Assembly: GCA_963816985.1 (NCBI GenBank)
Contig: CAWFMF010000004.1
Span: forward strand, 4,503,106-4,567,105
Length of the DNA stretch: 64,000 nt
Source: an uncultured Acidobacteriota bacterium
Lineage (GTDB): Bacteria; Acidobacteriota; Blastocatellia; Pyrinomonadales; Pyrinomonadaceae
Direction of reading: 5' to 3'
Part shown: piece by piece, positions 20,902-53,089 of the stretch
Position numbering within the stretch: the first letter of the stretch is position 1
How the letters are laid out: every line of letters starts with the position of its first letter
Position numbers and translations under genes: made by a program
The notes under the pieces: model-generated
Told to the model about the DNA's origin: nothing
The model's input: the letters and a program-made list of their open reading frames with translations, nothing else
Database searches by the model: none

Positions 20902-21211
20902 GTAATCAAAAGCCGTGTGCTGTTTACGAAAGAAGCCCCGCGCCAAACAACGCGGGGCTTCTTGGTGAAAGCCTTTTCAGACGTGCCCTTTTTCGGGAGG
21001 CCCGCCGAGCTGTTTAGCGGTTATTTTACGTGGCCGCAAGTCGCCTTAACTCACCACGCTTCGACACATATTGAAACATCAGGTCTGAGCCATGTCAAGC
21101 CACACGCCTGCGCGAGATTAAGACTTCTATTGTCCGGTGCCCTGTGCTGTGATAACTTCCCTGCCGGTTCTTCCGTCCTTATCCACATCAAAGCGTTGAA
21201 GAGGTTTCGGT

Positions 21212-36790: not shown

Positions 36791-37034
36791 CTTTGCAGCG
36801 AGGTATGGGGTCGGCCTCTCCGAACTTCACCATCGGGGTTAAGGGTTCGGAGAGGCCGACTCCTTATGAAAGGAGTATGTAATTAACATGAGCGACTGAA
36901 CGGGGAGGAAAGTTATGACTTGAATGAGCCCGAACTTCGGGCCGACTTTATGAAAGCCGACGGCCCCGGAGAAAACCAACCAGCCTTGTACGGCTCAGGC
37001 GGCGCGAAGGTTGCGAGGAATTTCGGCGAGGCGT

Positions 37035-37880
37035 CTATTCGCCCGCGGCGGCGAGTGCGTCCGCGCGGCTCAGCTCTAAGGCGAGGCAGGCCAACTGCTT
37101 CGCCTGCGTCGTCGAGAGGGCGACCGGGGCCGTCACGGTCGTCGCCTGCTGGCGCTTGACCTTCGTGACCTTGCCCTTCGGCGCGGCGGGGGCGAGCGGA
37201 ATCGCCACGCCGTCTTTCAAAGAGTTATTGAACTGGAACCGCATCACGTCGCCGACCTTCCTGAACTCCACGCCCCGCTCGTTGAACGCCGTGGCGATGT
37301 AGTTGACGCGCGCTTCCGTCTCGAACCGCTTCGAGCGCGCCCGCGCCGCTTTCGCCTCGGTCTCCGCCGCCACGATGCGGGTCGGTATCGGGTCAGCGCC
37401 CTCGCCCGGCGGGATGATCATCGCCATCTCCTGCACGGGGAGGGGCGCGCGGGTCGGGGCCTTCAAGACTCTCCCCAGACCCAACTCCCTCAAATCTTCC
37501 ACGTATTCGATTTCCATCTTCTCTTCGACGTTCTCGGTGGGCGGCGTGAGCATCATCGCCAGCTCGTCGGCTGCGATGGGATTCACGGCTTCGACTCCTG
37601 CCGTCGTCTCGACCCGCGCCGTCGCTCGCGACGAGGCGCTCGCACGCTTCGCGCCCGGATTCGCCGGGGCGTTGCAGGAGGCCAGAGTGTGCTGCGTGCT
37701 CTGCGGCGCTGTCTGAGCGGCCCCGCCCCGACCGTTGAGGCTCAGGAAGGCGTGCCAGATTTCGCTGCGGACTCGCCCGACCAGCGCACCCTTCAGCTCC
37801 AACAGGTCTTGCGAGGCCTGCGGGACAGCGGCAAAAGTGGCCGCGAGGAGAACGAATGCGATGACTGATCTGTGTTTCAT
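37035..37880 (-). CDS. hypothetical secreted protein
   Basis: Internal start MKHRSVIAFVLLAATFAAVPQASQ (signal peptide) of the 37035..37958 ORF. No known domain. Confidence 0.45.
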   Translation of the reverse strand: MKHRSVIAFVLLAATFAAVPQASQDLLELKGALVGRVRSEIWHAFLSLNGRGGAAQTAPQSTQHTLASCNAPANPGAKRASASSRATARVETTAGVEAVNPIAADELAMMLTPPTENVEEKMEIEYVEDLRELGLGRVLKAPTRAPLPVQEMAMIIPPGEGADPIPTRIVAAETEAKAARARSKRFETEARVNYIATAFNERGVEFRKVGDVMRFQFNNSLKDGVAIPLAPAAPKGKVTKVKRQQATTVTAPVALSTTQAKQLACLALELSRADALAAAGE

Positions 37881-38350
37881 TTTCTTAACCTGCCTGCTCT
37901 TAGGCGACCGGGTTCGTTTTCGAACGGGCTGCCGGAGTGCTCTCGGTTCGGATTTCAACGAGTAGGTGTCGCGCCCGCGTCCGAGGTTTCAACTTTTCGC
38001 GTCCGGGGCGTCCCAGCGGCCCTCGAACTGCCCTCGGCTACCTCTTTCTACTGGCAAAACACCACGTGCGCGTATTTCGTGGCAATAAATTTTTCGCTTA
38101 CAATGACGCCCGTCGCCTCGAAATTGTTAACACGCCGGAGTCGGCGGCGGCTCGAAGGCTTCCCCGTCTCGCCGTGTCGGAGGCCGAAAATGCCGACTCA
38201 CGTGCAGTTAGTGCCGACGGGTATGATTCCGTTTCAAAATAATTTAGGTTCCAAAACTTCGCGCTCCGCGCGAGGCGGCGTCGTACTTCGGCGGGCCGGG
38301 CGGGCGTGCCGGGTCAAACTTTTGAGCTGGATTTTCATGGAGGAGGGCGG

Positions 38351-39325
38351 ATGAAACATCGTCGCTTCGGGCGCACGGGCTGGTCTGTCAGCGAGATCGG
38401 CTACGGGATGTGGGGCATGGGCAGTTGGAGCGGTTCGAGCGACGAGGAGTCGCTTGGGTCGCTTCAGCACGCCGTTGACCTTGGGTGCAACTTCTTCGAC
38501 ACGGCTTGGGCTTACGGCGAGGGGCGGAGCGAAGGGCTGCTCGGACAACTCGTCCGCGCCAATCCGGGGAAGCGGCTCTACACGGCCTCGAAAATCCCGC
38601 CCAAGAATTTGAAGTGGCCGAGCCGTCGTGAGTTCACGCTCGACGAATGCTTCCCGCCCGAACACATCGAGGAGTACGTCCAACGCAGCTTACAAAACGC
38701 GGGCCTCGAAAGTTTCGACCTCATGCAGTTCCACGTCTGGGAGGACTCATGGGTCGAGGACGACCGCTGGGCGAAGAAGATGGACGAGCTTCGCCGTCAG
38801 GGCTTAATCAACGCCGTCGGCATCAGCATCAACCGCTGGGAGCCCTGGAACGGCGTCCGCACCGTGCGGAGCGGGATGATTGACGCCGTGCAGGTCATCT
38901 ACAACGTCTTCGACCAGAACCCGGAGGACGACCTTTTCCCCGCGTGCGCCGAAAAGGACGTGGCCGTCATCGCGCGCGTCCCGTTCGACGAAGGCACTCT
39001 GACCGGCACTCTCACCAAAGAGAGCACGTGGCCCGAAGGCGACTGGCGCAACACGTACTTCGTGGCGTCGAATTTGATTCCGAGCGTCGAGCGCGCCGAC
39101 GCACTCAAGCCAATCGTCTCAGACGCCGGGGTCTCCATGCCGGAGGCGGCGCTCCGCTTCATCCTCAATCACCCGTCGGTGAGCACAATCATCCCCGGCA
39201 TGCGCAAGCTCTCGCACGTCGAGTCGAACATCAAGGCGAGCGACGCCGGACCGCTCGACGACGACTTGCTCGAAGAGCTGCGCTTTCATCGTTGGGATCG
39301 CCAGCCGTCCGAGTGGTCACAGTAA
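38351..39325 (+). CDS. aldo/keto reductase
   Basis: GGAGGAGGG RBS, then MKHRRFGRTGWSVSEIGYGMWG...FDTAWAYGEG, the classic AKR pattern. Confidence 0.9.
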   Translation: MKHRRFGRTGWSVSEIGYGMWGMGSWSGSSDEESLGSLQHAVDLGCNFFDTAWAYGEGRSEGLLGQLVRANPGKRLYTASKIPPKNLKWPSRREFTLDECFPPEHIEEYVQRSLQNAGLESFDLMQFHVWEDSWVEDDRWAKKMDELRRQGLINAVGISINRWEPWNGVRTVRSGMIDAVQVIYNVFDQNPEDDLFPACAEKDVAVIARVPFDEGTLTGTLTKESTWPEGDWRNTYFVASNLIPSVERADALKPIVSDAGVSMPEAALRFILNHPSVSTIIPGMRKLSHVESNIKASDAGPLDDDLLEELRFHRWDRQPSEWSQ

Positions 39326-39418: not shown

Positions 39419-40386
39419 CTACAGGCAGGGATTCACGCCGGGGACGAGCGGGCGGACGTATGCGCCCTGCAACTCGGCGGCGGTGTAAGGCAGCAGGCGG
39501 TTGGTGACGAGTGTGTCCACGCGGAATCCGTCGGGGACGTTGACGAAGCTGTACGCGCCCGACACGACCATCGGGTTGAACTGCGAGAGTGCGAAGCCCG
39601 CGGGCTTCGGGTTGGGCTCGACCGTCGTGTCGAGCCCGAATCCGGGGGCCGCGAGGAAGTCGTCGAAGGTGAGCGCGCCCGATGCGGGGACGACCTTCGA
39701 CGTGACGAGGCTCAACTCGCCCGCGTTCCGCAGGTTGGTCGGGCCGAAGGCCGCCTCGCTCCCGGCGTTGCCTGCGCCGTCGAGGATGCGGTCGTAGCGT
39801 TGTGTCCAGAGGTAGTCGAGGACGCCGCCGGTCGTCGGCTCGACGAGCCGCGTGGGGACGATGCGGACGACCGGGAGTGCGAGCACCAGCGCGTCTTCGG
39901 GTGGGTCGGCGAGGTCGTTGCCGATGAGGTCGAAGGTCTGCCGGTCGTAGTAGAAGACGCCGAGGTTCGCATTGACCGCGATGAGCCAGAACTGATAGGC
40001 GGCGTCCGTGACGGTCTCCGGGTAGGCGGGCGTGAAGGGGTTCGTCGGGTTCGTGCCGGGGACGCGTTGGACGGTCGGGCGGTACGGCAGGTTCTCGTAG
40101 TGGAACCTGAGCGTCACCTTGTTGGCCGACTTGTTCCACTTCACTTCGGCGAAGGCGTTGCGCGTCTCGCGCGCGAAGTCCACGACCATGTCGCCGGGGG
40201 GCGGGCCGAAGCCGGGGACGAAGGGCAGGCGAAGCTCGCCGTGGGTGTTGGCCGGAGCGGCGGTCGCGCCGAGCGCCGGAGAGCCGCCCGCGAGCGGCAG
40301 CGCCGCGAGAGCGCCAGCCGAGAGCGCGGCGGTCTTGAGGAAGTTCGCGTCGGGGTGAGGGTTGGGGTTTCCGCACGTGTTCGTTC
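39419..40386 (-). CDS. hypothetical Tat-exported protein (apparent frameshift inside the signal peptide)
   Basis: ATG at 40386 gives MNEHVRKPQPSPRR. The next frame gives NFLKTAALSAGALAALPLAGGSPALGA...MVVDFARET..., the body of the 39419..40189 ORF. Together they form a canonical twin-arginine signal, S-P-R-R-N-F-L-K. Confidence 0.5.
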
Positions 40387-40456
40387 ATAACTAAACTCCT
40401 TTCAAAAATCCGAGTTGGCGTGGTGGGGGATATTGAAAGAGATCGTCTGCCGGGCG

Positions 40457-42199
40457 TCAGACGTTGACGGTCGTGCCGTCGTACTTCGTCAGGGAGAAGC
40501 CGTCGAAGTCTTCGTTGTAAGTCACGCGCTGCTCCCTGAGCAGTTGGATGGCGACCTGCTCGCCGAGTTCGATGGACTCCCTGCTGTCCGAGCGCCAGTG
40601 GACGCCCGCCATGTTGCGCCCGTTGGCGACGTTGTAGGCCATCTTGTTCAGCTCGCCGCCGACGGTCATCTGCCCCGCGTCCGCGCCCAAGTAGGGCACG
40701 AGCGCGAGCCCGTCGGGCGTCGGCTGCACGGGCTGCGTGAGGCTCGCGATGGGCGTCGAATCTTTGAACCAGGCTTTGAGGATGGTGGTGCACGCGCCCG
40801 CGACCGTCGCGTGGCCCGCGCCGTATGAGGGGTGCGTCGGGCAGCCTTCGGGGAAGGCCGACGGCAAAAGGTACGTGCCCTGCCCCGCGCCGTTGAACTG
40901 CTCGTTGTGCTGCTTGACGGCGGCGAGCACCGTCGAGCTGTTCATCGAAGGATGCACGTCGAACCTGCCGGGGTGTGTGCGGTTGTACTCGACGCGCGAG
41001 GCGAACTCTTCGGGCCGCAGACGCCGGTGCACCATCCACTTCTGATACCAGACGGCGTGGAGCGCGCGGGTCGAGACTTCGCACAGGAGCGTGGCGATGT
41101 GCGGGCCGCCGAAGGAGGCGAAGCCCTCCTGCGTCGGGCTGCCGTTGTAGGGGTTCCCGTCGTCGAAGGGCGCGCCGAGCCCCGCGAGACAGAGGAACGC
41201 CTGAAAGTACCCCTGGAAGAGCACGTCAATGTGCACCCACTGGGCGATGTCGCGGCCCATCCGCATGTAACGGCGTGCGGGGTCGAGGATGTCCGCGCCC
41301 GTCGCCGCTCCGTTCTGCACGTTGAGATAATCGGCGAAGGTCGTGAGGTAGTCGCTGCCGCCCCCTGCGCTTCCGTTGCCTGCGGTCGAGACCGGGGCGG
41401 CGGTCACTATCTGCTGGTCTATCTCGTTCGCGCCGAAGAAGCAGGGCAAGTAGAAATACTGCGAGAGGAGCGGGCCGACGCGGTCGCCCGCCGTGATGCC
41501 GCGGAAGAGTAGTTGCGGCGTGACGACGCCCGCATTGTTCTTCGCGCCTTTGAAGTCCGCGCCGAAGTTGGACAGGTCGGAGGCGGCGGCGTTGGCCGTC
41601 GGGTGCGCGGCGTAGTCGCTGAAAGGCACGTCGCGGAGGAGCGCCATCCAGTAGTTCTCGGCGATCTCGGCGCACTCCTCGCGGCTGGCGAAGGCAGGCG
41701 CGGGCGGCTGCACGAAGCTCTGCGGGTCGCCGCCTTCCATCTCGTAAGTGAATCCAGACTGCGGGCTGGTGAGCTTGCGACCGCCGCCGAGCTGGATAGA
41801 GTCGAAGAGGGCGGGATTGCCCTCGCCGTTCGCGAGCGCGTTGACGAGCGATTGATAAGCTCCGAGGACGACCGTGCCGTCCGCGTTGTGCGGCAACCCC
41901 TTCGAGTAACTGCCGCGCTTGTCGGCGTAGAGGTCGTCGTCCGGGTTGGTCGCGTGCTGGAGGTTCGGGCCGGTGGCGTTCTTGTTATCAACCGCCATCT
42001 GCTGCCGCTTGTTGAAGGCGCGGTTGCGCCGTGTGTTGCCGGAGGTGCCGACCGCGCTCGCCCGCGCCGTCGCCTTGGGAGAGCCGAAGAGGGGTTCGAA
42101 TCCGACGGCCCCGGCGGCGAGAGTGGCGGCCACGCCCGCGCCCGCCGTGCCTAAGAATTTACGCCTCGCGGTGGAGGTTTCGCGTCTGTTCCTTGTCAT
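40457..42199 (-). CDS. vanadium-dependent haloperoxidase-like protein (PAP2 superfamily), Tat-exported
   Basis: Internal start MTRNRRETSTARRKFLGTAGAG (Tat motif). C-terminal motifs RLRP, THPSYGAGHA and GVHWRSDSRESIELGEQVA match the three conserved vanadate-binding blocks of bromoperoxidases and acid phosphatases. Confidence 0.7.
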   Translation of the reverse strand: MTRNRRETSTARRKFLGTAGAGVAATLAAGAVGFEPLFGSPKATARASAVGTSGNTRRNRAFNKRQQMAVDNKNATGPNLQHATNPDDDLYADKRGSYSKGLPHNADGTVVLGAYQSLVNALANGEGNPALFDSIQLGGGRKLTSPQSGFTYEMEGGDPQSFVQPPAPAFASREECAEIAENYWMALLRDVPFSDYAAHPTANAAASDLSNFGADFKGAKNNAGVVTPQLLFRGITAGDRVGPLLSQYFYLPCFFGANEIDQQIVTAAPVSTAGNGSAGGGSDYLTTFADYLNVQNGAATGADILDPARRYMRMGRDIAQWVHIDVLFQGYFQAFLCLAGLGAPFDDGNPYNGSPTQEGFASFGGPHIATLLCEVSTRALHAVWYQKWMVHRRLRPEEFASRVEYNRTHPGRFDVHPSMNSSTVLAAVKQHNEQFNGAGQGTYLLPSAFPEGCPTHPSYGAGHATVAGACTTILKAWFKDSTPIASLTQPVQPTPDGLALVPYLGADAGQMTVGGELNKMAYNVANGRNMAGVHWRSDSRESIELGEQVAIQLLREQRVTYNEDFDGFSLTKYDGTTVNV

Positions 42200-42850
42200 G
42201 GGGTTTGACTTCCTTTCTCGTCCGAAGGGTCTGCCGCGTGGAGAGGTTTCGGCAGACGGGTAGACAGTCTCCGACCTCTGCGCCGAACGTCGAGCCCGGC
42301 GCGAAGGCAGGCGTGAATGGAGCAAGTGTGTCCGAGCCGGGTGATGTCCGGCGTTAGGCTGAGAGGGGGTTTCTTCGGGGCCGAAACGGGAGTCGCGGAG
42401 AGGTTAAGGGCAAAGGTTAAGCTCGGAGTCGGGATAAGACTTTGGGCGTTTGAGCGTTCACGCGTGGCAAGAGGTTTCGTGAACGTGGTACATCGTCAGT
42501 AAGGTTGCGCGGACGATACAACTGACCTTCAACGTTGTCAATGGAAAATAATTCATAGCCCGCAGCACTTCGCTTTCGACCCGGCAAGAATGGACTTCAC
42601 ACGAAATAGTGCTTGCCCTGCACCATCTGGCATAGGCGGTTTTTTTGAGATTCCACTAATTTCATGATAATTGCCCGCCCAACCCTCATCCGCGCCCCGC
42701 GCCCGCGCGACGGGCACACGCCTTGCTCAAGCCGTCGCTAAAGGACAAGGACCCTCGCAAGTGCTTGACCTTCCCTCGGCACCTCTTTGTCTATGCACGC
42801 GACTGCCCCCGCGCAGCCCCGTAGTTTCACAACCGAAGGAGCGTCCGTCC

Positions 42851-45193
42851 ATGCGTACAGGCAAGAATCTGTTCGTCGCATTGCTTCTCTCTCTCTGCAC
42901 CACACTACTGCTGACCACCACCAGCGCCCTCGCCGCCGAAGACGTTAACGACACCGGGGACGATTACGAAGAGCACGCGCGCGTGATGCGCGTCACGCTG
43001 ATGAAAGGCGAGGCCAGTCTGCGCCGCGCCGGAGCCGCCGACTGGGAGGACGCGAAGATCAACCTCCCGCTCGTCGAAGGCGACACGCTGGCGACGGGCC
43101 GCGACTCGCACTTGGAGATTCAGGTGGACGCGCGCAACTTCGTCCGCCTCGGCCCCGACTCGGTCTTGAAGATCATCACGCTGCGCGACGAAGGCATCGC
43201 CGTCAGCCTCTCCGAAGGCACGGCCACGCTCCGCCTCGCGCGCTTCGATCCCGACAAGGAGTACTTCGAGATTGACGCGCCGAAGACGACGATGGCCGCC
43301 GAGAAGCACGGCCTCTATCGTCTCGACGTTTCATCGGACGGGAGCGTCCGCGTCACCGTCCGCGACGACGGGCGCGCGCGCATCTACAACGAGACCTCCG
43401 GCTTCGTCCTTCGCAACAACCGCTCGGCCCGCCTCTCCTACGACCCGCAGGGCGAAGGCGACTGGGAGCTGAGCGCCGCCGCGTCGTTCGACAACTGGGA
43501 CAACTGGAACGACGAGCGCGAGCGTTACCTCGCCACGCGCCTGCGCTACGAGGGGCGCGACCGCTACTACGACCCCGAAGTCTGGGGCGCGGAAGAACTC
43601 GACTCCTACGGCGACTGGAGCTACACGCGCGATTACGGCTACGTGTGGCGTCCGCACGGCAACGTCATCAGCCGCTATCAGGACTGGGCTCCCTACCGCT
43701 ACGGCCACTGGCGCTGGTGCCCGCCCTACGGCTGGACGTGGATACCGGACGAGGACTGGGGTTGGGCTCCTTATCACTACGGTCGTTGGGTCTACGTCAA
43801 TGGCTACTGGTGCTGGGCTCCGCGCGGCTACGGCTACCCCTACAAACGCCCCTGGTGGCGGCCCGCCCTCGTCGCCTTCGTCTACGTCAACACCTCCTAC
43901 GGCCACGACGTATGCTGGTATCCGCTCCGCCACGGCCAGCGCGACCCGCGCGGTCGCTTCTGGAGGAGGAACTTTGAGAGGCTTGAGCCTTTGCGCCGCA
44001 ACGACGCGCGGAACCTGCGCCGCACAGACCCCGCACGACTACGCGCCGTCTCGACGGCTTCATCGAGGGAGTTCGGCACATCAACACTCCGCGCGCGCCC
44101 GGCCTCGGCTGACATCGCGCAGAGAGCTTTGACGGAAGAGCCGGTGCGCGGTCGTCTGCCGGTCACGCCCCGCGTCGGGACGCCCGGCGCGCTCGAAGGC
44201 GAAGGCCGCGACCGTCGCACCGTGACTTCGGGCTCGATGTCCGGCAACAGCAACATGCGCGGCGGCGGCCTGACCATCGCCCGCCCCGCGCCCATCGGCC
44301 CGGCGCGCTCTCTGCCGGATAGAGAGACGGGCGCGGCCCCGCGCACAGCCGGTGTTCCGCTCGACGCCGAGTTAAGAAGGATGCGCATCTTCAACGGACG
44401 AGAGCCTCGACAGCCCGCGCCCTCTTCGGTCGGCACGACTCCGTCCGTCGTCAACCCGAACCCGTCTGCTTCGGGCGACGCAGGCACGGGCGCGGTCTTG
44501 CGTCCCAACCGGACGGACAGGCGTCCGCCCTCGACGAACGAAGGCACGGGCGGCGTTGCGCCCGACGCGGGCGCGGCGAACCCCGCGCGCGTGCGGCCCA
44601 CACGTCCCGCGCAGCCGAATGAAGATAGCAACGGCGGCGCGAGCAGCAGCCCCGAAGTCGTCGTCCCCAGAGCGCGCAGGCCCGACGAAGGCTCGCGCGA
44701 CAACTCCGACTCGCCGCGCGTGAGGCGCGAGCGCCCGACGGAGGACGCGCCTTCGAGCGCGCCGCCCACCGTGGAGAAGTACGAGCCGCGCGTGCGCCCG
44801 AACGCGCCCGAATCGCGACCGGCTCCCGAATCAAGACCGGAGCCTTCGCGCCGCGAAGAGTCGTCCCGGCCCGAACGCTCCGCGCCGAGGGAGGAGCGTT
44901 CCGCGCCGCGCTACGAGCCTCCGGCCCGCGAGGAGCGGCCTGCGCCGCGCAACGACCCGCCACCCCGCAACGACCCACCGCCCTCGCGGCAGGAGTCGCC
45001 GCGCAACGATCCTCCTCCGCAGAGGAATGACCCGCCGCCGCAGCGGAACGACCCTCCGCCGTCGCGTTCGGAGCCTTCCCCTTCGCGTGAGGAGAGGTCT
45101 TCGCCACCCGCGCGTGATTCGGAGTCTTCGCGGCCCTCGCGCTCGGAGGACAGCGACCGACCGGCGCGGGTGAAGCCCGACAACCGGCGTTGA
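42851..45193 (+). CDS. large secreted protein: FecR-like beta-domain, Trp/Tyr-rich domain and low-complexity Pro/Arg/Ser/Glu-rich tail
   Basis: - signal peptide MRTGKNLFVALLLSLCTTLLL
- FecR-like segment (LVEGDTLATGRDSHLEIQ)
- dense W/Y segment (WDNWNDERE...YGHWRWCPPYGWTWIPDEDWGWAPYHYGRWVYVNGYWCWAPRGYGYPYKRPWWRPA)
- C-terminal repeats of RNDPPP
AGGAGCG RBS. Confidence 0.6.
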   Translation: MRTGKNLFVALLLSLCTTLLLTTTSALAAEDVNDTGDDYEEHARVMRVTLMKGEASLRRAGAADWEDAKINLPLVEGDTLATGRDSHLEIQVDARNFVRLGPDSVLKIITLRDEGIAVSLSEGTATLRLARFDPDKEYFEIDAPKTTMAAEKHGLYRLDVSSDGSVRVTVRDDGRARIYNETSGFVLRNNRSARLSYDPQGEGDWELSAAASFDNWDNWNDERERYLATRLRYEGRDRYYDPEVWGAEELDSYGDWSYTRDYGYVWRPHGNVISRYQDWAPYRYGHWRWCPPYGWTWIPDEDWGWAPYHYGRWVYVNGYWCWAPRGYGYPYKRPWWRPALVAFVYVNTSYGHDVCWYPLRHGQRDPRGRFWRRNFERLEPLRRNDARNLRRTDPARLRAVSTASSREFGTSTLRARPASADIAQRALTEEPVRGRLPVTPRVGTPGALEGEGRDRRTVTSGSMSGNSNMRGGGLTIARPAPIGPARSLPDRETGAAPRTAGVPLDAELRRMRIFNGREPRQPAPSSVGTTPSVVNPNPSASGDAGTGAVLRPNRTDRRPPSTNEGTGGVAPDAGAANPARVRPTRPAQPNEDSNGGASSSPEVVVPRARRPDEGSRDNSDSPRVRRERPTEDAPSSAPPTVEKYEPRVRPNAPESRPAPESRPEPSRREESSRPERSAPREERSAPRYEPPAREERPAPRNDPPPRNDPPPSRQESPRNDPPPQRNDPPPQRNDPPPSRSEPSPSREERSSPPARDSESSRPSRSEDSDRPARVKPDNRR

Positions 45194-45335
45194 GGAAGCG
45201 AGACGGGGCCTCGCTTCCTCTTCCGAGGCGGCGGTTGAAGAAACGCGCGTTCACGACCAACGCAACACGTCGCGCGTCTCTTCAGCCGCCGCCGCTCATC
45301 CACCTCGCTCTCCCGACCCGAAAGGATCGTGTCAG

Positions 45336-47420
45336 ATGAACGCCCGCACTCGCCGCTCTCTGCTCCCGCACATGCTCGCCCTCGTCCTCTGCCTCTGCGG
45401 CGCAGCCCCTTTGCGCAACGGGCAGGCGCAAAAGAACACAGGGAAGTCTTACCGCCCGGACATCCGCCGCGCCCTCAAGTCTCGACAGAAGAGCGCGAAC
45501 TTCCCCGCCCGCTCCGGCTCATACGCGCCGCGACGTGCGCGCAAGTCACCGGCCCGGCTCGCGCGCACGTCGCGCCCGGCCACGAGTGACGCGCGGCAAA
45601 GGCCGACCGCCCGTCCCGCGATTGTGCGCCGCGACGCTGCGAAACGAATCGAGCGCAAAGCCGAAGCCGCCGCCCTCCCGAACATCACGCCGGGCACGCC
45701 GCTCAGCCGCGTCTTGCACACCTCGCAACTGAGCCTCGTCAGCTCCGCCGGTACTCACGAGCAGTTCGTTGACGTGGACGGCGACCTCCTCGCCGACCAG
45801 CGCACGACGTTCGACTCCGACGGCGGCTCCTTCGACATCGCCGTCGGGCGCACGGGCGACCGCTACGAAGTCTTCACGGCGATTGACGACCGTGGGACGG
45901 GGACAATCAACGACGACGTTTCGACGGGCATCCTCGTCCTCGCGCGCGACTCTAACGGCAACTACCAGCGCGACCTCTCGGCCACCTTCGACCTCGGCAG
46001 GGACTTCGGCTTCCCCTCGGCGGTCTCGGTCGTCTCCGGCACCTCGGCGACGGGCCGCGAGTTCGTCGTCGTCTCCTCCAGCGGCTTCTTCAACAGCGAC
46101 GACCCCGACGACCCGAACAACGAAGAGTCGCCCGGCGTCGTCCTCCTCGTCCGCGACCCCTCGACCGGCGGCTTCGACGACTCGCGCACGCGCGAACTCA
46201 TCAGCGTCGGCGACGACCGCATCTTCAACGCCAACGCTCTCGCGCTCCTCCCGTCCGGCGACCTCGTCATCGCCGACTTCCAGTCGAACGAGCTGCGCGT
46301 CGTCCACGACACCAACGGCGACCGCATCCCCGACGTGCTCTCGCCCGACCCCTACTGGGACTTCCCCTTCTCCGCCAACGCCGAGGACGCGCCGCTCGAC
46401 ATCGCCTCGAACTCGCGCGGCGTCGTCTTCACGCACACCGTCGGCAACGACACGCAGATGCTCGCCGTCTACGACGACAACGCCGACGGCTTCGCCGACA
46501 CCGACGAGATACGCGCCGAGGGACTCTCGATAGACAACAACCTCGTCCTCCACGGCCTGACCGTGGGCCGCGACGGCACGGTCTACATCATCGAAGACGC
46601 GACGGGCGAGAGCGACCTGCCAGCCGACGGCGGCAACGGCGGTATCCCGCGCATTGACGCCTTCCCCGACCCGGCCTTGAACGGCGTGCTGCGCGACGGC
46701 GCGATCTTCGAGTTCGCCGACGACGAATTCACGCAGGCGCTCTCCGGCCTCTCCTTCGGCGTCGAAACCGTCCTCAACCCGGTCGCGCATCTTTCGATGA
46801 CCAACAGCGCGAGCCAGCAGGGCGACGCGCCGCGAGGCGGACTGGCGACCATCAAAGGCACGGGCCTCACGCGCGGCGCGACGGGCGCAACTCGCGCCGA
46901 AGCGATTGCTCAAGGCGTCGCCGTCACCATCGAAGGCTTCAACGTCCCCGTCCTCTCCTTCGACGACACGCGGATACACATTCAGGTTCCGCAGGAGTTG
47001 GGCGCGGGCGTCGGCTCGGTCATCGTCAACGTGCAGGGCAACATCATCGCCGCCGACGACGCCTTCATCGTCCAGGCCAATCCCGGCGTCTTCACCGTCC
47101 CGCAGACCGGCGCGGGCGAAGCGGTCGCGCTCCTCGCCTCCGGCATGAGCTACACGCAAGCGCCCTTCCCCGCGCGGACGAACAACCAGCCCTCCGTCGT
47201 CTCGCTCCTCGGCACAGGCTGGCGCAACTCTCTGCCCGTCACCGTGAAGATCGGCGGGCAGAACGCCGCCGTCCAGTACGCCGGAGTCGCGGGCGGCTTC
47301 GAAGGGCTCGAACAGATAAACGTCGAGATACCGAACGGCGTGAACGGCGCGGCCACCGTCGTCGTCACCACCGCCTCCGGCGCGACGAGCCGGGGCGACG
47401 TTTTCATCACCGTCCAATGA
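45336..47420 (+). CDS. large secreted protein with C-terminal Solibacter-type uncharacterised domain (TIGR03437-like)
   Basis: Signal peptide. The C-terminal two tandem segments (NPGVFTVPQTGAGEAVALLASG...GGQNAAVQYAGVAGGFEGLEQINVEIPNGV) resemble the TIGR03437 family, which is abundant in Acidobacteria. Confidence 0.6.
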   Translation: MNARTRRSLLPHMLALVLCLCGAAPLRNGQAQKNTGKSYRPDIRRALKSRQKSANFPARSGSYAPRRARKSPARLARTSRPATSDARQRPTARPAIVRRDAAKRIERKAEAAALPNITPGTPLSRVLHTSQLSLVSSAGTHEQFVDVDGDLLADQRTTFDSDGGSFDIAVGRTGDRYEVFTAIDDRGTGTINDDVSTGILVLARDSNGNYQRDLSATFDLGRDFGFPSAVSVVSGTSATGREFVVVSSSGFFNSDDPDDPNNEESPGVVLLVRDPSTGGFDDSRTRELISVGDDRIFNANALALLPSGDLVIADFQSNELRVVHDTNGDRIPDVLSPDPYWDFPFSANAEDAPLDIASNSRGVVFTHTVGNDTQMLAVYDDNADGFADTDEIRAEGLSIDNNLVLHGLTVGRDGTVYIIEDATGESDLPADGGNGGIPRIDAFPDPALNGVLRDGAIFEFADDEFTQALSGLSFGVETVLNPVAHLSMTNSASQQGDAPRGGLATIKGTGLTRGATGATRAEAIAQGVAVTIEGFNVPVLSFDDTRIHIQVPQELGAGVGSVIVNVQGNIIAADDAFIVQANPGVFTVPQTGAGEAVALLASGMSYTQAPFPARTNNQPSVVSLLGTGWRNSLPVTVKIGGQNAAVQYAGVAGGFEGLEQINVEIPNGVNGAATVVVTTASGATSRGDVFITVQ

Positions 47421-47587: not shown

Positions 47588-48709
47588 ATGGAGCTTCAAG
47601 ACCTCAAGACCCCTTCTCTCATCCTCGACGCCACCCGCGTCCGCAGCAACGCCGAGAGGATGTCCGCGCGCGTGCGAGAGTTCGGCGCGGACTTGCGCCC
47701 GCACGTCAAGACGCACAAGTGTGTGGAAGTCGCGCGCCTTCAGACCGAAGGGCACGGCGGCGGCATCACCGTCTCGACGCTCGCCGAAGCGCGCGCCTTC
47801 GCCGCCGAGGGTTTTCGGGACATCACCTACGCCGTCCCCGTCGAGCCCGGCAAGTTCGGCGAAGCAGTAGAACTCGCACGGACGTGCGACCGCTTCGCCC
47901 TCATCACCGACGACGAAAGCATCCCCGGCCCGCTCAATGATGCGGCGCGACGCGGCGGCGTGACCCTCGATGTCTTCCTCAAAGTTGACTGCGGCTATCA
48001 CCGCTGCGGCGTCGAGCCGAACCTGCCCGAAGCGAGAAGCATCCCCCGCCTCATTCAAGACTCGCCTTCGTTGCGCTTCGCCGGAATCCTCACGCACGCG
48101 GGCCACTCGTACCACGCGCGCTCGCGCGAAGAGCTGCTCGCCCTCGCCCGTCACGAGCGCGACTTGATGACCGGCTTCGCCGCCGACCTCCGCGCCGAAG
48201 GCGTCGAAGTCCCCGTTGTGAGCATCGGCTCGACGCCGACCATCACGCACGTTGACCACCTCGAAGGCGTGGACGAAGTGCGCCCCGGCAACTACATCTT
48301 CTTCGACGCCTTTCAGGCCACGCTCGGCAGTTGCGGCTTCGACGACTGCGCTCTGACCGTCCTCACGTCAGTCGTCCACCGCGACCGCACGCGCCGCAAA
48401 ATCGTCCTCGACGCGGGGGCCGTCGCGCTCTCGAAAGACCGTGGTGCGATTGAGTTCGACGAGAGTTGCGGCTACGGTCGCGTCCTCGACCTCGAAGGCC
48501 GGGACACGGGCCTCCGTGTCGAGTCTCTCTCACAAGAACACGGCGCGGTGCTCGTCCCCGACGAAAAGCTCTTCGACTCGCTGCGCGTCGGCACGCGCGT
48601 CCGCGTGCTCGCCAATCACTCGTGCCTCACGGCGGCGCAGCACTCTCATTATCACGTCCTCGAAGGCGAGCGCGTCGTTGACCGTTGGAAGATACACGGC
48701 GGGTGGTGA
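47588..48709 (+). CDS. alanine racemase N-terminal-domain (D-TA / D-serine deaminase-like) PLP enzyme
   Basis: 373 aa. PSLILD...HVKTHKC (PLP lysine) and FLKVDCGYHRCG, typical of the DSD1/low-specificity D-threonine aldolase family. Confidence 0.8.
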   Translation: MELQDLKTPSLILDATRVRSNAERMSARVREFGADLRPHVKTHKCVEVARLQTEGHGGGITVSTLAEARAFAAEGFRDITYAVPVEPGKFGEAVELARTCDRFALITDDESIPGPLNDAARRGGVTLDVFLKVDCGYHRCGVEPNLPEARSIPRLIQDSPSLRFAGILTHAGHSYHARSREELLALARHERDLMTGFAADLRAEGVEVPVVSIGSTPTITHVDHLEGVDEVRPGNYIFFDAFQATLGSCGFDDCALTVLTSVVHRDRTRRKIVLDAGAVALSKDRGAIEFDESCGYGRVLDLEGRDTGLRVESLSQEHGAVLVPDEKLFDSLRVGTRVRVLANHSCLTAAQHSHYHVLEGERVVDRWKIHGGW

Positions 48710-48735
48710 AGCGTGGTGAAATTCCTTTTTGAGAC

Positions 48736-51360
48736 TCACGCGCGCGGCGGGTCTGCGAGCGGGTTTTCGGGCCACGCGTGGCGCGGGTAGCGGCGGCTGA
48801 GTTCCTGACGGACGCGCGGGTAATGACGCGTCCAAAAACCTTCGAGGTCGGTCGTCACCTGCACGGGCCGCTGGTTCGGCGCGAGCAGTTGGAGCACGAG
48901 CGGCGTGCGACCGCCCGCAATCTTCGGCCCCTCGTTCATGCCGAAGAAGTCCTGCAAACGCGAGGCGACGTAAGGCGGTCGCTGCGGCTCGTACTGCACG
49001 CGCACCTGCCGACCGCGCGCGAGCACGACGCGCTCCGGGGCCATCGTCGCCAAAAGTCGCGCGCCTGTCCTGCCGACTTTAGCGCGCAGAAACTCTTGCA
49101 ACTCGCCCGCGCGCACGGCCTCGCGCAACTCCGCGAAGCTTCGCCTGCCTTCACACATCTGTGTGAAGCATTCGCGCACTTCCTCTTCGCCCGGCGCGAC
49201 AAGCTCCGCTTCGGGGAACGTCCGCGCCACAAACTCGACGCGCGCGAGGAAGCGTTCGAGTGTTTCGCGTTCGGCGAACGCATAAACTCCCGCCGAGAGC
49301 GCGGCCCCGGCGAGCACGGACGAAACCTCCTCGCCCGTCGCCTCGTTCGCGCGCCACTCTTCAATCACGAGTTGGTCGTAGACCAGACGCCGCACGGCCT
49401 CGACGCGCTCACCTTGCGCGTTCCAGCGAGCCTCGGTCGTCTCCTTGATTCGCTCGGCAAACAAGTCGAGCAGCCAGTCGGGCTCAATCGCGCTCGCGAG
49501 CCGCACCTGCGTCCTCTGCCCGCGTGCGCTCCCGCCGCCGCGCCCCGCCTGCCTTCGCTCCTCCGCGTCAATCGCCACCATGAACTCCGCCCGCCGCACC
49601 ACGCTCTCCGGCGCGAGCCGCGCACCCCCGCCGCCCGACAATAACAACTCTGCTCCCTCGCCGTCCGCCCCGCCGCCCGAAGCACGACGGCGCGCGACTC
49701 TATCCGGGTAGCCCGCGAGGATGGAAATCAAAAGCTCTCGCTCCTCCTCGTCCGTCAGCGACGCGGGCCGACGCCCGCCGCGCTTCGCTTCCCTCTCGGC
49801 CCCGATGAGACGTTGCAGTTGCCGCCTCACTTTCTCCACCGCGCGCACAGCGTTCGGGTTCAACTCCGCCCTCCGCGAGTGTTCGGGCGAGAAGTCAGAC
49901 TTCGCCGCGCTCTCGAAGAGGTCGAGAAGCTCAAGCAGGTCTGACGTGCCGCTGCTCCGCGCGCGAGGCGTCTGTCTTTCGCGTGAGTCTTGCATGACGC
50001 GGCCCGCGCGGATGTCGCGCTCGCTGACGAGCGCGGCCACGGCGCACGCCTCGCGCGCGACGCCACGGCCTTCGGCCTCGACCACGATGCGCGCCAGACG
50101 AGGGTGCAGCGGCAGGCGCAACATTCGCCGCCCCGTCGGACTCAACTCGCCCGCGTCGTCGAGCGCGCCGAGCCCGCGCAGAAGCTCCCGCGCGGATTCA
50201 AGCGAGGGCTCGGACGGCGGCTCGAACCAGTCGAAGCGTCGGAGGTCGCCGACGCCCGACGCGCTCAGCTCAAGCACCGCCTCCGAGAGATCGAGACGCT
50301 GAATCTCCGGCGCTTCGTGCGCGGGCCGCGCGTTGAAATCCTGCGCCGTGTAGAGACGAAGGCAACGTCCTTCGCGCGTCCTCCCTGCGCGGCCCGCGCG
50401 TTGAATCGCCGAAGCCTTGCTCACGCGCTCGACGTTCAAGACCGGCAGCCCCGACCACGGCGAATGGCCCGCGACGCGCGCGAGCCCGGAGTCTATGACG
50501 GCGGCGACGCCTTCAATCGTCACGGATGATTCGGCGACGTTGGTCGAGAGAATCAACTTGCGTTTCGACGCCGGAGCTACGGCCCGGTCTTGCTCGGCGG
50601 CGGGCATCTCGCCGTGTAAAGGGAGCACGAGCAGGTCGGCTTCGGCGGCGACCGCCGAGCAAGCCGCTTGCGCGCGCCGAATCTCCGCCGCGCCGGGGAG
50701 AAAGACGAGCACGTCGCCCTCCAAGCCTTCCTTCAACAGACGCCTCACAGCGCTCTCGACGAGAAGCTCAAGCGGGCGCTCGTCGTGCCGCGCGAGATGT
50801 TCTATCTCGACCTCGAAGCGTCGGCCCTCGGAGCGCAGCACGGGACAACCTCCGAGGTATCGCGCGAGCGGCGCGGCGTCGAGCGTCGCCGACATCGCCA
50901 CGACGCGCAAATCCTTCCGCCCGCTTTGCCGCAAGCGTTTCAGTAAGGCGAGCGCGAGGTCTGATTGAAGGTGTCGCTCGTGGAATTCATCAAGCACGAC
51001 TATGCTGGCGCGCGCCAGTTGCGGGTCAGAGAGCAAACGGCGTGTGAGCACGCCTTCGGTGAGAAAACGCAGGCGCGTGCGCGGCCCGGACACCTCTTCG
51101 AACCGCACTTGATAGCCGACCGTCTCGCCCAAAGGTTCGCCACGCTCTTCGGCGACGCGCCGCGCCGCGAGCCTCGCCGCTAAACGTCTGGGCTCAAGCA
51201 CCCACACCTCGCCGCCGCCCGCGAGTCCTGCTTCGAGCAGTGCGGCGGGCACGCGCGTCGTCTTCCCCGCGCCGGGCGGGGCCTCGATGACGAGATACGG
51301 CTCTTGCCTCAGAGACTCGATTATCTCCGGCACGAGCGCGTCCACGGGCAAAGGCTGCAT
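48736..51360 (-). CDS. hrpB: ATP-dependent RNA helicase HrpB
   Basis: 874 aa. Walker A EAPPGAGKTT, DEFH box, HA2 and the HrpB C-terminal domain. Confidence 0.9.
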   Translation of the reverse strand: MQPLPVDALVPEIIESLRQEPYLVIEAPPGAGKTTRVPAALLEAGLAGGGEVWVLEPRRLAARLAARRVAEERGEPLGETVGYQVRFEEVSGPRTRLRFLTEGVLTRRLLSDPQLARASIVVLDEFHERHLQSDLALALLKRLRQSGRKDLRVVAMSATLDAAPLARYLGGCPVLRSEGRRFEVEIEHLARHDERPLELLVESAVRRLLKEGLEGDVLVFLPGAAEIRRAQAACSAVAAEADLLVLPLHGEMPAAEQDRAVAPASKRKLILSTNVAESSVTIEGVAAVIDSGLARVAGHSPWSGLPVLNVERVSKASAIQRAGRAGRTREGRCLRLYTAQDFNARPAHEAPEIQRLDLSEAVLELSASGVGDLRRFDWFEPPSEPSLESARELLRGLGALDDAGELSPTGRRMLRLPLHPRLARIVVEAEGRGVAREACAVAALVSERDIRAGRVMQDSRERQTPRARSSGTSDLLELLDLFESAAKSDFSPEHSRRAELNPNAVRAVEKVRRQLQRLIGAEREAKRGGRRPASLTDEEERELLISILAGYPDRVARRRASGGGADGEGAELLLSGGGGARLAPESVVRRAEFMVAIDAEERRQAGRGGGSARGQRTQVRLASAIEPDWLLDLFAERIKETTEARWNAQGERVEAVRRLVYDQLVIEEWRANEATGEEVSSVLAGAALSAGVYAFAERETLERFLARVEFVARTFPEAELVAPGEEEVRECFTQMCEGRRSFAELREAVRAGELQEFLRAKVGRTGARLLATMAPERVVLARGRQVRVQYEPQRPPYVASRLQDFFGMNEGPKIAGGRTPLVLQLLAPNQRPVQVTTDLEGFWTRHYPRVRQELSRRYPRHAWPENPLADPPRA

Positions 51361-51568
51361 GTTGATTTCTTAAAGCAGGCGCGGGCGTTTAGCAAGCATA
51401 GGCGCACCCGAAGGACGCGCCGCTGTTGTCCGGCAAATTAAAGTCCGACAAACTAATGTGAGCTTTCAGACAGCGGCCTTCATCACGTCCGGCGTACAGT
51501 GATTTCAAACCGCTTCCAGCTTTGAAGTTATATTACCGGCATCCCAATTTTAACGAACGAGGGTTTTC

Positions 51569-53089
<1,521 letters not shown>

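What the first reader, a model, noticed from the sequence alone, without database searches (positions are those of the whole stretch)
39419..47420. Cluster of four large secreted proteins including a Tat-exported vanadium-haloperoxidase-like enzyme
Consecutive genes encode:
- a Tat-signal protein of unknown fold
- a 580-aa Tat-signal PAP2-superfamily protein with all three vanadate-binding blocks (RLRP; HPSYGAGHA; GVHWRSDSRE) typical of bromoperoxidases
- a 780-aa secreted protein combining a FecR-like domain, an extremely Trp/Tyr-dense segment and RNDPPP tail repeats
- a 694-aa TIGR03437-type protein

A periplasmic or extracellular haloperoxidase would generate hypohalous acid. The neighbouring aromatic-rich and unknown proteins could be partners, substrates or protectants. 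This is a plausible but undescribed extracellular oxidative or halogenating module.
Basis: partly seen in the sequence, partly recalled or inferred. Interest (0 to 1): 0.6.

Follow-up and report, generated by a model that had tools for sequence, protein, structure and literature searches.

The report
Exported vanadium haloperoxidase, no conserved cluster
One of the four genes is a convincing exported vanadium haloperoxidase of a type common in soil Acidobacteria and already named as such in databases, but the four genes do not travel together in other genomes, so the proposed four-gene "halogenating module" is not supported.

Summary
The four genes exist, as two divergent pairs: B then A on the minus strand, C then D on the plus strand.

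- **B (40457-42199, 580 aa)** is a full-length homologue of solved algal and cyanobacterial vanadium bromoperoxidases (E 1e-85). It keeps Lys, Arg, Arg and both His of the vanadate site. The vanadate-contacting Ser is Ala, as in all 85 relatives aligned. It has a twin-arginine leader. NCBI already names close homologues "vanadium-dependent haloperoxidase".
- **A** is a small beta-sandwich protein of a tiny family. Its Tat leader reads through only if one base (~40346) is removed.
- **C** is a secreted FecR + DUF6600 protein.
- **D** is a TIG/TIGR03437 protein.

Gene order holds only in close relatives, where housekeeping flanks are syntenic too. Of 80 species-level genomes with a B homologue, none has A or D nearby. 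Four of four C orthologues on long contigs have no haloperoxidase gene nearby. C-D is the conserved pair, and B behaves as a single-gene insertion or deletion.

Two weak links remain. A FecR/DUF6600 gene sits near the haloperoxidase gene in 24 of 87 loci. A follows two different haloperoxidase paralogues in one syntenic slot.

Verdict: a new member of a known kind, of low to moderate interest.

The parts
40457..42199 (-). Gene B: 580-aa vanadium-dependent haloperoxidase homologue (bromoperoxidase type) with a twin-arginine leader (ARRKFLGTAGAG...ARA/SA). Active-site residues are K387, R395, H456, A461-G462-H463, R528 and H534.
   Evidence: phmmer against PDB gives E 1.4e-85 to Corallina V-BPO (7qvw, 1up8, 1qhb), 3e-77 to 5lpc/8q2x and 2e-65 to Ascophyllum 1qi9, over residues 144-579. 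The motifs are invariant in 16 and in 85 homologues. B is 100% identical to P0016, and close homologues are named 'vanadium-dependent haloperoxidase' by NCBI and carry PF22778.
39419..40388 (-). Gene A: about 322-aa exported beta-sandwich protein of unknown function. It is interrupted by a 1-nt insertion near 40346, inside its Tat leader. The uninterrupted ORF is only 39419-40189.
40444..40463 (-). Hairpin overlapping the stop codon of B, in front of A. A has its own AGGAG ribosome-binding site at 40400-40396.
   Evidence: The terminator-like count in the region is not above the shuffled expectation, so this is weak.
42513..42541 (-). Promoter-like site (TTGACA-17-TATCGT) upstream of B, in the divergent B/C spacer.
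   Evidence: 1 found against 0.3 expected. This is a consensus match only.
42851..45193 (+). Gene C: 780-aa secreted protein. It has a Sec leader, a FecR-like beta domain, a Trp/Tyr-rich DUF6600 region (four predicted beta-hairpins) and a long Pro/Arg/Glu low-complexity tail with RNDPPP repeats.
   Evidence: Pfam. In the model the FecR part has pLDDT 80-94 and the DUF6600 part about 50. Foldseek matches the periplasmic domain of the putative anti-sigma factor BDI_1681 (4m0h/4m0n, E 2e-5). There are 1232 homologues, and the 120 best listed, where a source names them, are Pyrinomonadaceae/Acidobacteriota.
45336..47420 (+). Gene D: 694-aa secreted protein. It has a basic disordered N-terminus, a probable beta-propeller-like middle (only faint NHL/DUF7133 hits), and a C-terminal TIG + TIGR03437 (Soli_cterm) domain. 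It forms a conserved pair with C.
   Evidence: The co-directional C-D pair is seen in the window, L001, L088, L089, L092, L093 and L094.

Best explanation
The region holds three independent units that happen to be neighbours in this lineage.

1. **B.** B is a stand-alone, Tat-exported vanadium-dependent haloperoxidase of the algal/cyanobacterial bromoperoxidase type. It belongs to a very large clade of Pyrinomonadaceae/Blastocatellia (Acidobacteriota).
   - Inferred mechanism, from the family: the folded enzyme is exported by the Tat pathway. It binds vanadate through His534, held by Lys387, Arg395, Arg528 and the Gly462 backbone. It uses H2O2, with His463 as acid-base catalyst, to oxidise bromide or iodide (perhaps chloride) to hypohalous acid outside the cytoplasm.
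   - The Trp384 and His456 configuration matches bromoperoxidases.
   - Ala461 replaces the Ser that normally hydrogen-bonds vanadate. This is a hallmark of the whole clade.
   - The physiological role (antagonism, peroxide removal, halogenation of organic matter or of signals) is not shown here.
2. **C-D.** C and D form a separate conserved gene pair of unknown function, found with or without a haloperoxidase gene.
3. **A.** A is a sporadic accessory gene. In this assembly its export signal is frameshifted, either by an assembly error or by real inactivation.

B behaves as a single-gene insertion or deletion between C and the peptidase-M15 / aldo-keto-reductase flank.
For: **Shown for B**
- Full-length homology to solved V-BPOs.
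- All catalytic motifs are invariant in 85 homologues.
- RR.F is invariant in the leaders of 16 homologues.
- More than 6800 homologues at E < 1e-20, and at least 572 tblastn-confirmed stretches in the species-representative genome collection.
- NCBI's name for close homologues is 'vanadium-dependent haloperoxidase'.

**Shown for context**
- A and D are near the B homologue in 0 of 80 loci.
- The commonest neighbours of B homologues recognisable by eye are housekeeping genes (CarB-, MurB-, HemQ-, Xth-like; these were not scanned against any HMM library), which points to plain synteny; a 920-aa no-Pfam protein and a lumped TPR-repeat cluster are commoner still.
- L090 keeps C, peptidase M15, the 307-aa gene and CBM9, but lacks B, A and the aldo-keto reductase (AKR).
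- L091-L093 have C without B.
- L092 and L093 have C-D.
- L086, L088 and L089 have B without A.

**From the literature**
- Secreted bacterial VHPOs with Sec and Tat signals, acting without a biosynthetic cluster and including an acidobacterial one, have been described (PMC11312541).
- The active-site residue set comes from PMC10278073.
Against: - A FecR/DUF6600 gene lies beside the haloperoxidase gene in 24 of 87 loci, in three arrangements and from two paralogue groups about 30% identical. That is more than a naive chance expectation.
- A sits directly behind a haloperoxidase gene in every Pyrinomonadaceae-type locus seen (window, L001/L002, L094). This holds although the haloperoxidases there are only about 41% identical to B while the flanks are 67-78% identical.
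- A distant A-domain homologue is fused to a di-haem cytochrome c peroxidase.
- No activity, metal content or localisation was measured.
- The effect of Ser to Ala on catalysis is unknown.
Confidence: 0.65

Rival explanations
1. One reading: A, B, C and D together form an extracellular oxidative or halogenating module, with the haloperoxidase plus partner, substrate or protectant proteins.
For: The four genes are adjacent here, all with export signals. The whole arrangement recurs in L001, L002 and L094 (with a paralogous haloperoxidase), and three of the four genes (D, C, B) recur in L088 and L089.
Against: - Those loci are close relatives in which the D-Ser-dehydratase-like (DSD), peptidase M15, aldo-keto reductase (AKR) and CBM9/DUF5916 flanks are conserved to the same degree.
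- 0 of 80 more distant haloperoxidase loci have A or D.
- Four of four C orthologues lack a haloperoxidase gene.
- The genes lie on two strands.
- A is frameshifted.
Confidence: 0.05
2. B and A form a two-gene functional unit. A is a secreted accessory of peroxide-using enzymes, for example supplying or channelling H2O2, halide or substrate to the haloperoxidase.
For: - A is co-directional with B, 68 bp downstream, with its own ribosome-binding site.
- A follows a haloperoxidase gene in all three Pyrinomonadaceae-type loci, even though the haloperoxidase has been exchanged for a 41%-identical paralogue.
- The A domain is fused to CCP_MauG in P0277 and accompanies other extracellular redox-type domains (FGE-sulfatase, CHRD, cytochrome c).
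- The top fold matches are Cu,Zn-SOD-like sandwiches.
Against: - 0 of 80 B-family loci have A.
- A homologues at 53-59% identity instead sit next to a Trans_reg_C/TPR regulator with no haloperoxidase gene.
- Only one invariant His, so there is no SOD metal site.
- The leader is frameshifted in this genome.
- A hairpin lies between B and A.
Confidence: 0.15
3. B works with the FecR/DUF6600 protein C. The Trp/Tyr-rich secreted protein would be a substrate (halogenation or oxidative cross-linking into a matrix), or a sensor that controls the haloperoxidase.
For: A FecR+DUF6600 gene is within about 2 kb of the haloperoxidase gene in 22 of the 24 loci that have one, out of 87 loci. It is divergent in the window subclade. 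A roughly 30%-identical paralogue with the same architecture is co-directional, upstream or downstream, in about 19 loci of another subclade.
Against: - 63 of 87 haloperoxidase loci have none, including all ~35 loci of the largest subgroup (group 4).
- Four of four C orthologues on long contigs lack a haloperoxidase gene, and C instead pairs with D.
- Each arrangement is confined to one subclade, so it could be inherited synteny.
- There is no literature on DUF6600.
Confidence: 0.12
4. B is not a haloperoxidase in vivo. It would be a phosphatase-like or other oxyanion-binding enzyme, because the vanadate-contacting Ser is replaced by Ala throughout the clade.
For: AGH replaces SGH in all 85 homologues. 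The VHPO and acid-phosphatase active sites are homologous (established knowledge). The L001 paralogue deviates further (PTGH, and His in place of the motif-3 Arg).
Against: Every other vanadate ligand is invariant, including the bromoperoxidase-specific second His. The overall similarity is to V-BPOs and not to PAP2 phosphatases: there is no PF01569 hit, and the PDB hits at E < 1e-59 are all V-BPOs.
Confidence: 0.08

Closest known systems
Red-algal vanadium bromoperoxidases (Corallina pilulifera/officinalis; PDB 1up8, 1qhb, 7qvw)
   Same: Homologous over residues 144-579 (E 1e-83 to 1e-85). Motifs are shared: K-x7-RP, HPSYG-x-GH, GR-x4-GVH-x-x-S-D. B carries Trp at the position mutated in 7qvw (WYQK), so it resembles the mutant and the Ascophyllum type here. 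This reading of the alignment rests partly on my own knowledge of the R397W work.
   Different: B has a bacterial Tat leader. Ala replaces the vanadate-contacting Ser (SGH to AGH). Several loops are shorter. No activity data exist.
Cyanobacterial V-BPO (PDB 5lpc, 8q20-22) and Ascophyllum nodosum V-BPO (1qi9)
   Same: Same family (E 3e-77 and 2e-65).
   Different: According to PMC11312541, characterised eukaryotic and cyanobacterial VHPOs lack signal peptides. B has one.
Secreted bacterial alkyl-quinolone-brominating VHPOs (PMC11312541)
   Same: Bacterial VHPOs that carry Sec or Tat signal peptides, lie outside biosynthetic gene clusters and act on exogenous molecules. One comes from an acidobacterium (Luteitalea).
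   Different: Membership was not tested, because no sequences were available. B's nearest solved relatives are algal-type V-BPOs, and no substrate is known.
FecR-type anti-sigma factor periplasmic domains (PF04773; PDB 4m0h/4m0n)
   Same: Residues 45-210 of C fold like this domain (Pfam E 7e-8; Foldseek E 2e-5).
   Different: C starts with a cleavable signal peptide, so it has no cytoplasmic anti-sigma domain or membrane anchor. It continues into DUF6600 and a disordered tail. None of the six flanking ORFs scanned (34098-39325 and 47588-53089) is an ECF sigma factor.

Membership tests
Vanadium-dependent haloperoxidase (bromoperoxidase type) | Full-length sequence homology to solved VHPO structures | tested here: met
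   E 1.4e-85 to 2e-59 against ten V-BPO chains, covering residues 144-579 or 52-570.
Vanadium-dependent haloperoxidase (bromoperoxidase type) | Axial vanadate-binding His (His496 in C. inaequalis VCPO) within the R-x5-H-x3-D motif | tested here: met
   GRNMAGVH534WRSD aligns with GRNMAGVHYFSD of Corallina and is invariant in 85 homologues. The residue list comes from PMC10278073.
Vanadium-dependent haloperoxidase (bromoperoxidase type) | Catalytic acid-base His (His404 in VCPO) in the x-G-H motif | tested here: met
   G462-H463 is invariant.
Vanadium-dependent haloperoxidase (bromoperoxidase type) | Lys and two Arg that neutralise vanadate (Lys353, Arg360, Arg490 in VCPO) | tested here: met
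   K387, R395 (RLRP) and R528 are invariant.
Vanadium-dependent haloperoxidase (bromoperoxidase type) | Ser hydrogen-bonding vanadate (Ser402 in VCPO; S-G-H) | tested here: not met
   Ala461 (AGH) is found in B and in all close homologues, while Corallina has SGH. This is a substitution of one second-shell ligand. Its consequence is unknown.
Vanadium-dependent haloperoxidase (bromoperoxidase type) | Vanadate binding and H2O2-dependent halide oxidation | not testable with these tools
   This needs recombinant protein, vanadate, and a monochlorodimedone or thymol-blue assay.
Tat (twin-arginine) exported protein | S/T-R-R-x-F-L-K motif followed by a hydrophobic stretch and an AxA cleavage site | tested here: inconclusive
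   For B, ARRKFLGTAGAGVAATLAAGAVG...ARA/SA is visible, and R12, R13 and F15 are invariant in 16 homologues. However, the TAT_signal HMMs did not report B at E <= 0.01. For A, the HMM hits are below cutoff (16.3 against 22.7 bits; 16.5 against 16.7) and appear only after the frameshift is repaired.
PAP2 acid phosphatase (PF01569) | Match to the PAP2 profile | tested here: not met
   There is no hit even at E <= 10. Only 2 of the 120 listed homologues carry PF01569 in precomputed annotation.
Conserved gene cluster / operon A-B-C-D | Gene order conserved beyond closely related, generally syntenic genomes | tested here: not met
   A is near B in 0 of 80 loci, D in 0 of 80, and the C orthologue in 0 of 80 (only a ~30% paralogue, in 17-21). 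C orthologues occur without a haloperoxidase gene in 4 of 4 loci. A occurs without one in 4 of 7 distinct loci.
FecR-type transmembrane anti-sigma factor (for C) | N-terminal cytoplasmic anti-sigma domain, a membrane span, and a partner ECF sigma gene | tested here: not met
   C begins with a signal peptide, and the FecR domain starts at residue 78. None of the six flanking ORFs scanned (34098-39325 and 47588-53089) hits a sigma-70 family.
Cu,Zn superoxide dismutase (for A) | Greek-key beta-sandwich with six His and one Asp as metal ligands | tested here: not met
TIGR03437 Soli_cterm domain protein (for D) | Match above the curated cutoff | tested here: met
   93.7 bits against a cutoff of 29.05, over residues 489-694.

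The most novel reading that the evidence does not exclude
The A domain is an unrecognised extracellular beta-sandwich domain that accompanies peroxide-using enzymes. It has no Pfam model, forms about 79 clusters at 50% identity, and has a Cu,Zn-SOD-like topology without the metal site. It has stayed directly behind a Tat-exported haloperoxidase gene through a swap between two 41%-identical paralogues, and elsewhere it is fused to a di-haem cytochrome c peroxidase. It could therefore be a partner that delivers H2O2, halide or substrate to such enzymes. A parallel reading is that the Trp/Tyr-rich FecR/DUF6600 protein is a target that the haloperoxidase cross-links or halogenates.
Probability: 0.12. 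Interest if true: 0.6.

Novelty: new member of a known kind. Interest (0 to 1): 0.3.

Why it matters
Soil Acidobacteria of the Pyrinomonadaceae/Blastocatellia group carry a very large, well-conserved clade of exported bromoperoxidase-type vanadium enzymes. These enzymes could contribute to natural organohalogen formation and to microbial antagonism in soil. No member of this clade, with Ala in place of the vanadate-contacting Ser and a Tat leader, is reported as biochemically characterised in the papers read here; no dedicated search for characterised members was run. This gene is a reasonable candidate for expression.

The specific claim that made the finding attractive, a new four-gene extracellular halogenating system, does not hold. 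The finding is therefore mainly a correct annotation of a known enzyme type. Two small leads remain, the A domain and the DUF6600 adjacency.

Tried and rejected
- **Pfam and NCBIfam on B.** No family was reported, even at E <= 10, although precomputed tables list PF22778. I relied on the PDB sequence search instead.
- **A Trans_reg_C/TPR regulator as a common link between A and B.** The largest neighbour cluster (38 of 80 loci) turned out to be lumped by generic TPR repeats. The winged-helix N-terminus is present in only 4 of 80 haloperoxidase loci (L016, L020, L047, L083). Rejected as a general link.
- **A as a superoxide dismutase.** The fold hit is generic and the metal ligands are absent. 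Rejected.
- **A riboswitch or other RNA element in the B/C spacer.** Rfam at gathering threshold gave nothing in 39-48 kb.
- **Looking up the window's own contig through P0016.** It is not on record.
- **Metagenome scan for more A loci.** Only two were found.
- **Literature on DUF6600.** None.
- **Structure of DUF6600.** Low confidence (pLDDT about 50), with no informative fold match beyond the FecR part.
Full report
**What is in the sequence**

The window is about 65% G+C. The region contains four real-looking genes arranged as two divergent pairs.
- B (40457-42199) and then A (39419-40388) lie on the minus strand.
- C (42851-45193) and then D (45336-47420) lie on the plus strand.
- A 650-bp spacer separates the B and C starts. 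It holds one sigma-70-like site facing B, at 42541-42513.
- The flanks are ordinary genes: an aldo-keto reductase (38306-39325), a D-serine-dehydratase-like gene (47588-48709), hrpB, malQ and a CBM9/DUF5916 protein.

**Gene B**

The 580-aa product gave no hit in my Pfam or NCBIfam scans. A sequence search of the PDB returned only vanadium bromoperoxidases at strong E-values:
- Corallina enzymes at 1e-83 to 1e-85, over residues 144-579;
- the 666-aa cyanobacterial-type enzyme (5lpc, 8q20-22) at about 3e-77;
- Ascophyllum (1qi9) at 2e-65.

The alignment places B's WYQK387WMVHRRLR395P, H456PSYGA461G462H463A and GR528NMAGVH534WRSD on the three vanadate-site blocks. The defining residues of the family are the axial His plus Lys, two Arg, Ser and the catalytic His (PMC10278073). 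All are present except the Ser, which is Ala.

That Ala, and every other site residue, is invariant in 16 diverse homologues and in 85 homologues from genome loci. It is therefore a clade character and not decay.

The leader MTRNRRETSTARRKFLGTAGAGVAATLAAGAVG...ARA/SA has the twin-arginine pattern. RR.F is invariant in the homologues, although the Tat HMMs did not reach threshold for B.

B is 100% identical to a protein from a 5.04-Mb public contig. More than 6800 database proteins match at E < 1e-20. NCBI names the close ones "vanadium-dependent haloperoxidase", and they carry PF22778. At least 572 stretches in the species-representative genome collection encode relatives. The 80 best-matching loci come almost entirely from Pyrinomonadaceae, Blastocatellia and Chloracidobacterium.

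**Gene A**

As written in the window, the ORF starts at ATG 40189 and has no signal peptide. An upstream ATG at 40388, behind AGGAG, reads MNEHVRKPQPSPRR in another frame. The continuation NFLKTAALSAGALAALPLAGG joins the body only if one base near 40346 is dropped.

Intact homologues at over 90% identity read MNEHVRK..SPRRNFLKTA... The source assembly's own gene call is the truncated 256-aa product.

The family is tiny, with 15 proteins in the 5.8-billion-sequence search. A profile search of 1.84 billion representatives finds 79 clusters. In some of these the domain is fused to other domains:
- di-haem cytochrome c peroxidase;
- FGE-sulfatase;
- CHRD/Spondin_N;
- cytochrome c;
- SnoaL/RTX.

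**Genes C and D**

C has four parts:
- a Sec leader;
- a confidently modelled FecR-like beta domain, matching the periplasmic domain of a putative anti-sigma factor (4m0h, E 2e-5);
- the Trp/Tyr-rich DUF6600 region, predicted with low confidence as four beta-hairpins;
- a long low-complexity tail with RNDPPP repeats.

C has no cytoplasmic anti-sigma part. D has a TIG domain and a clear TIGR03437 C-terminal domain, with only faint propeller-type hints in the middle.

**Is it a module?**

I tested gene order in four ways.

1. *Close relatives.* B is 73-81% identical in L086, L088 and L089. In L001, L002 and L094, A is 74-77% identical. All these loci keep the DSD-D-C <-> haloperoxidase layout (L086 has C but no D). 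The DSD, peptidase M15, AKR, CBM9 and Band_7/GntR/ABC flanks are conserved to the same degree where the contig covers them. That is general synteny. A is absent from L086, L088 and L089.

2. *Species-representative genomes.* I took 80 genomes with a B homologue at 53-73% identity and up to 10 kb of flank each side where the contig allows.
   - tblastn finds A in 0 and D in 0.
   - Clustering all neighbours shows that the frequent ones recognisable by eye are housekeeping genes (CarB-, MurB-, HemQ-, exonuclease-III-like). A 920-aa protein with no Pfam match is also frequent.

3. *C orthologues on long contigs* (61-72% identity).
   - Four of four have no haloperoxidase gene within 8 kb.
   - Two of them keep D just downstream.
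   - One (L090) keeps C, peptidase M15, the 307-aa gene and CBM9, with B, A and the AKR simply missing.

4. *A homologues at 53-59% identity* (L003/4, L005, L095, L096). These sit beside a Trans_reg_C/TPR regulator, with no haloperoxidase gene.

C-D is the conserved pair, and B behaves as a single-gene insertion or deletion.

**What is left over**

Two observations argue against complete independence.

- *A FecR+DUF6600 gene near the haloperoxidase gene.* This occurs in 24 of 87 loci. It is divergent in the window's subclade. In a second subclade of about 19 loci it is a roughly 30%-identical paralogue with the same architecture, placed co-directionally upstream or downstream. None occurs in the largest subgroup (group 4, ~35 loci).

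- *A behind two different haloperoxidases.* In the window, A follows B. In L001 and L094 it follows a Tat-leader haloperoxidase paralogue only about 41% identical to B, with motifs HPCYPTGHG and GHGIHAGIHFRS. The flanking genes there are 67-78% identical to the window's. The A-haloperoxidase adjacency therefore survived a paralogue exchange in one slot.

With the cytochrome-c-peroxidase fusion, these observations keep a B-A or B-C functional link alive at low probability. I rate them 0.15 and 0.12.

**Comparison with what is known**

Secreted bacterial VHPOs with Sec or Tat signals, acting on exogenous molecules without an adjacent biosynthetic cluster, have been described, including one from an acidobacterium (PMC11312541). 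The closeness of acidobacterial and algal VHPOs has also been noted (PMC11765636). B is thus a new member of a known kind. Its distinguishing features are the clade-wide Ser-to-Ala change and the Tat leader. Activity, halide preference and physiological role remain inferred.

**Verdict**

Interest is 0.3.

Noticed in passing
window 20993-21067 (-): Rfam gathering-level match to the SAM-II riboswitch (RF00521 SAM_alpha, 36.9 bits against 36, full model). It lies immediately upstream of a 1200-aa ORF (17344-20946, -) that by eye looks like a cobalamin-dependent methionine synthase; the ORF was not scanned against any family library. The position fits a real riboswitch, in what appears to be an acidobacterium rather than an alphaproteobacterium.
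   Followed up: partly
window ~40346 (minus-strand gene A leader): A single extra base separates the ATG/RR part of the Tat leader from the rest of gene A. The public assembly's gene call is the truncated 256-aa product, and near-identical metagenome proteins are intact. This is either an assembly error or real inactivation.
   Followed up: partly
gene A domain (window 39419-40250); homologues P0260-P0337: The A domain has no Pfam model. It forms about 79 clusters at 50% identity and is fused in some proteins to CCP_MauG, FGE-sulfatase, CHRD+Spondin_N, cytochrome c, or SnoaL/RTX/beta-propeller modules. It looks like an undescribed extracellular domain.
   Followed up: partly
L001:8004-9782, L094:7991-9781: The haloperoxidase in the same syntenic slot of a close relative is a different paralogue, about 41% identical to B and also with a Tat leader. 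It has Thr in place of the Ser/Ala (PTGH) and His where the motif-3 Arg should be (GHGIHAGIHFRS). The oxyanion site may be altered.
   Followed up: no
L003, L004, L005, L095, L096; also L047, L083: A homologues in Blastocatellia are always divergent from a 680-690-aa Trans_reg_C + TPR regulator. A similar regulator (46-54% identical in the N-terminal domain) lies next to the haloperoxidase gene in two Chloracidobacterium loci.
   Followed up: partly
L007-L044 (e.g. L036:11668-14487, -): A protein of about 920-950 aa with no Pfam match lies convergent with, and almost abutting, the haloperoxidase gene in 25 of 80 genome loci. A Gln/Arg-rich low-complexity protein lies divergent from the FecR/DUF6600 paralogue in 20 loci. 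Neither is present in the window.
   Followed up: partly
window 42851-47420; L092, L093: C (FecR/DUF6600) followed by D (TIG/TIGR03437) is a conserved co-directional pair in Pyrinomonadaceae, independent of the haloperoxidase gene. In L092 and L093 a 157-173-aa ORF with no Pfam match lies between them.
   Followed up: partly
gene B, window 40457-42199: The local Pfam-A scan reports nothing for B even at E <= 10, whereas precomputed tables assign PF22778 (VCPO_2nd) to B itself (P0016) and its homologues. This is a tool or library discrepancy worth knowing about.
   Followed up: no
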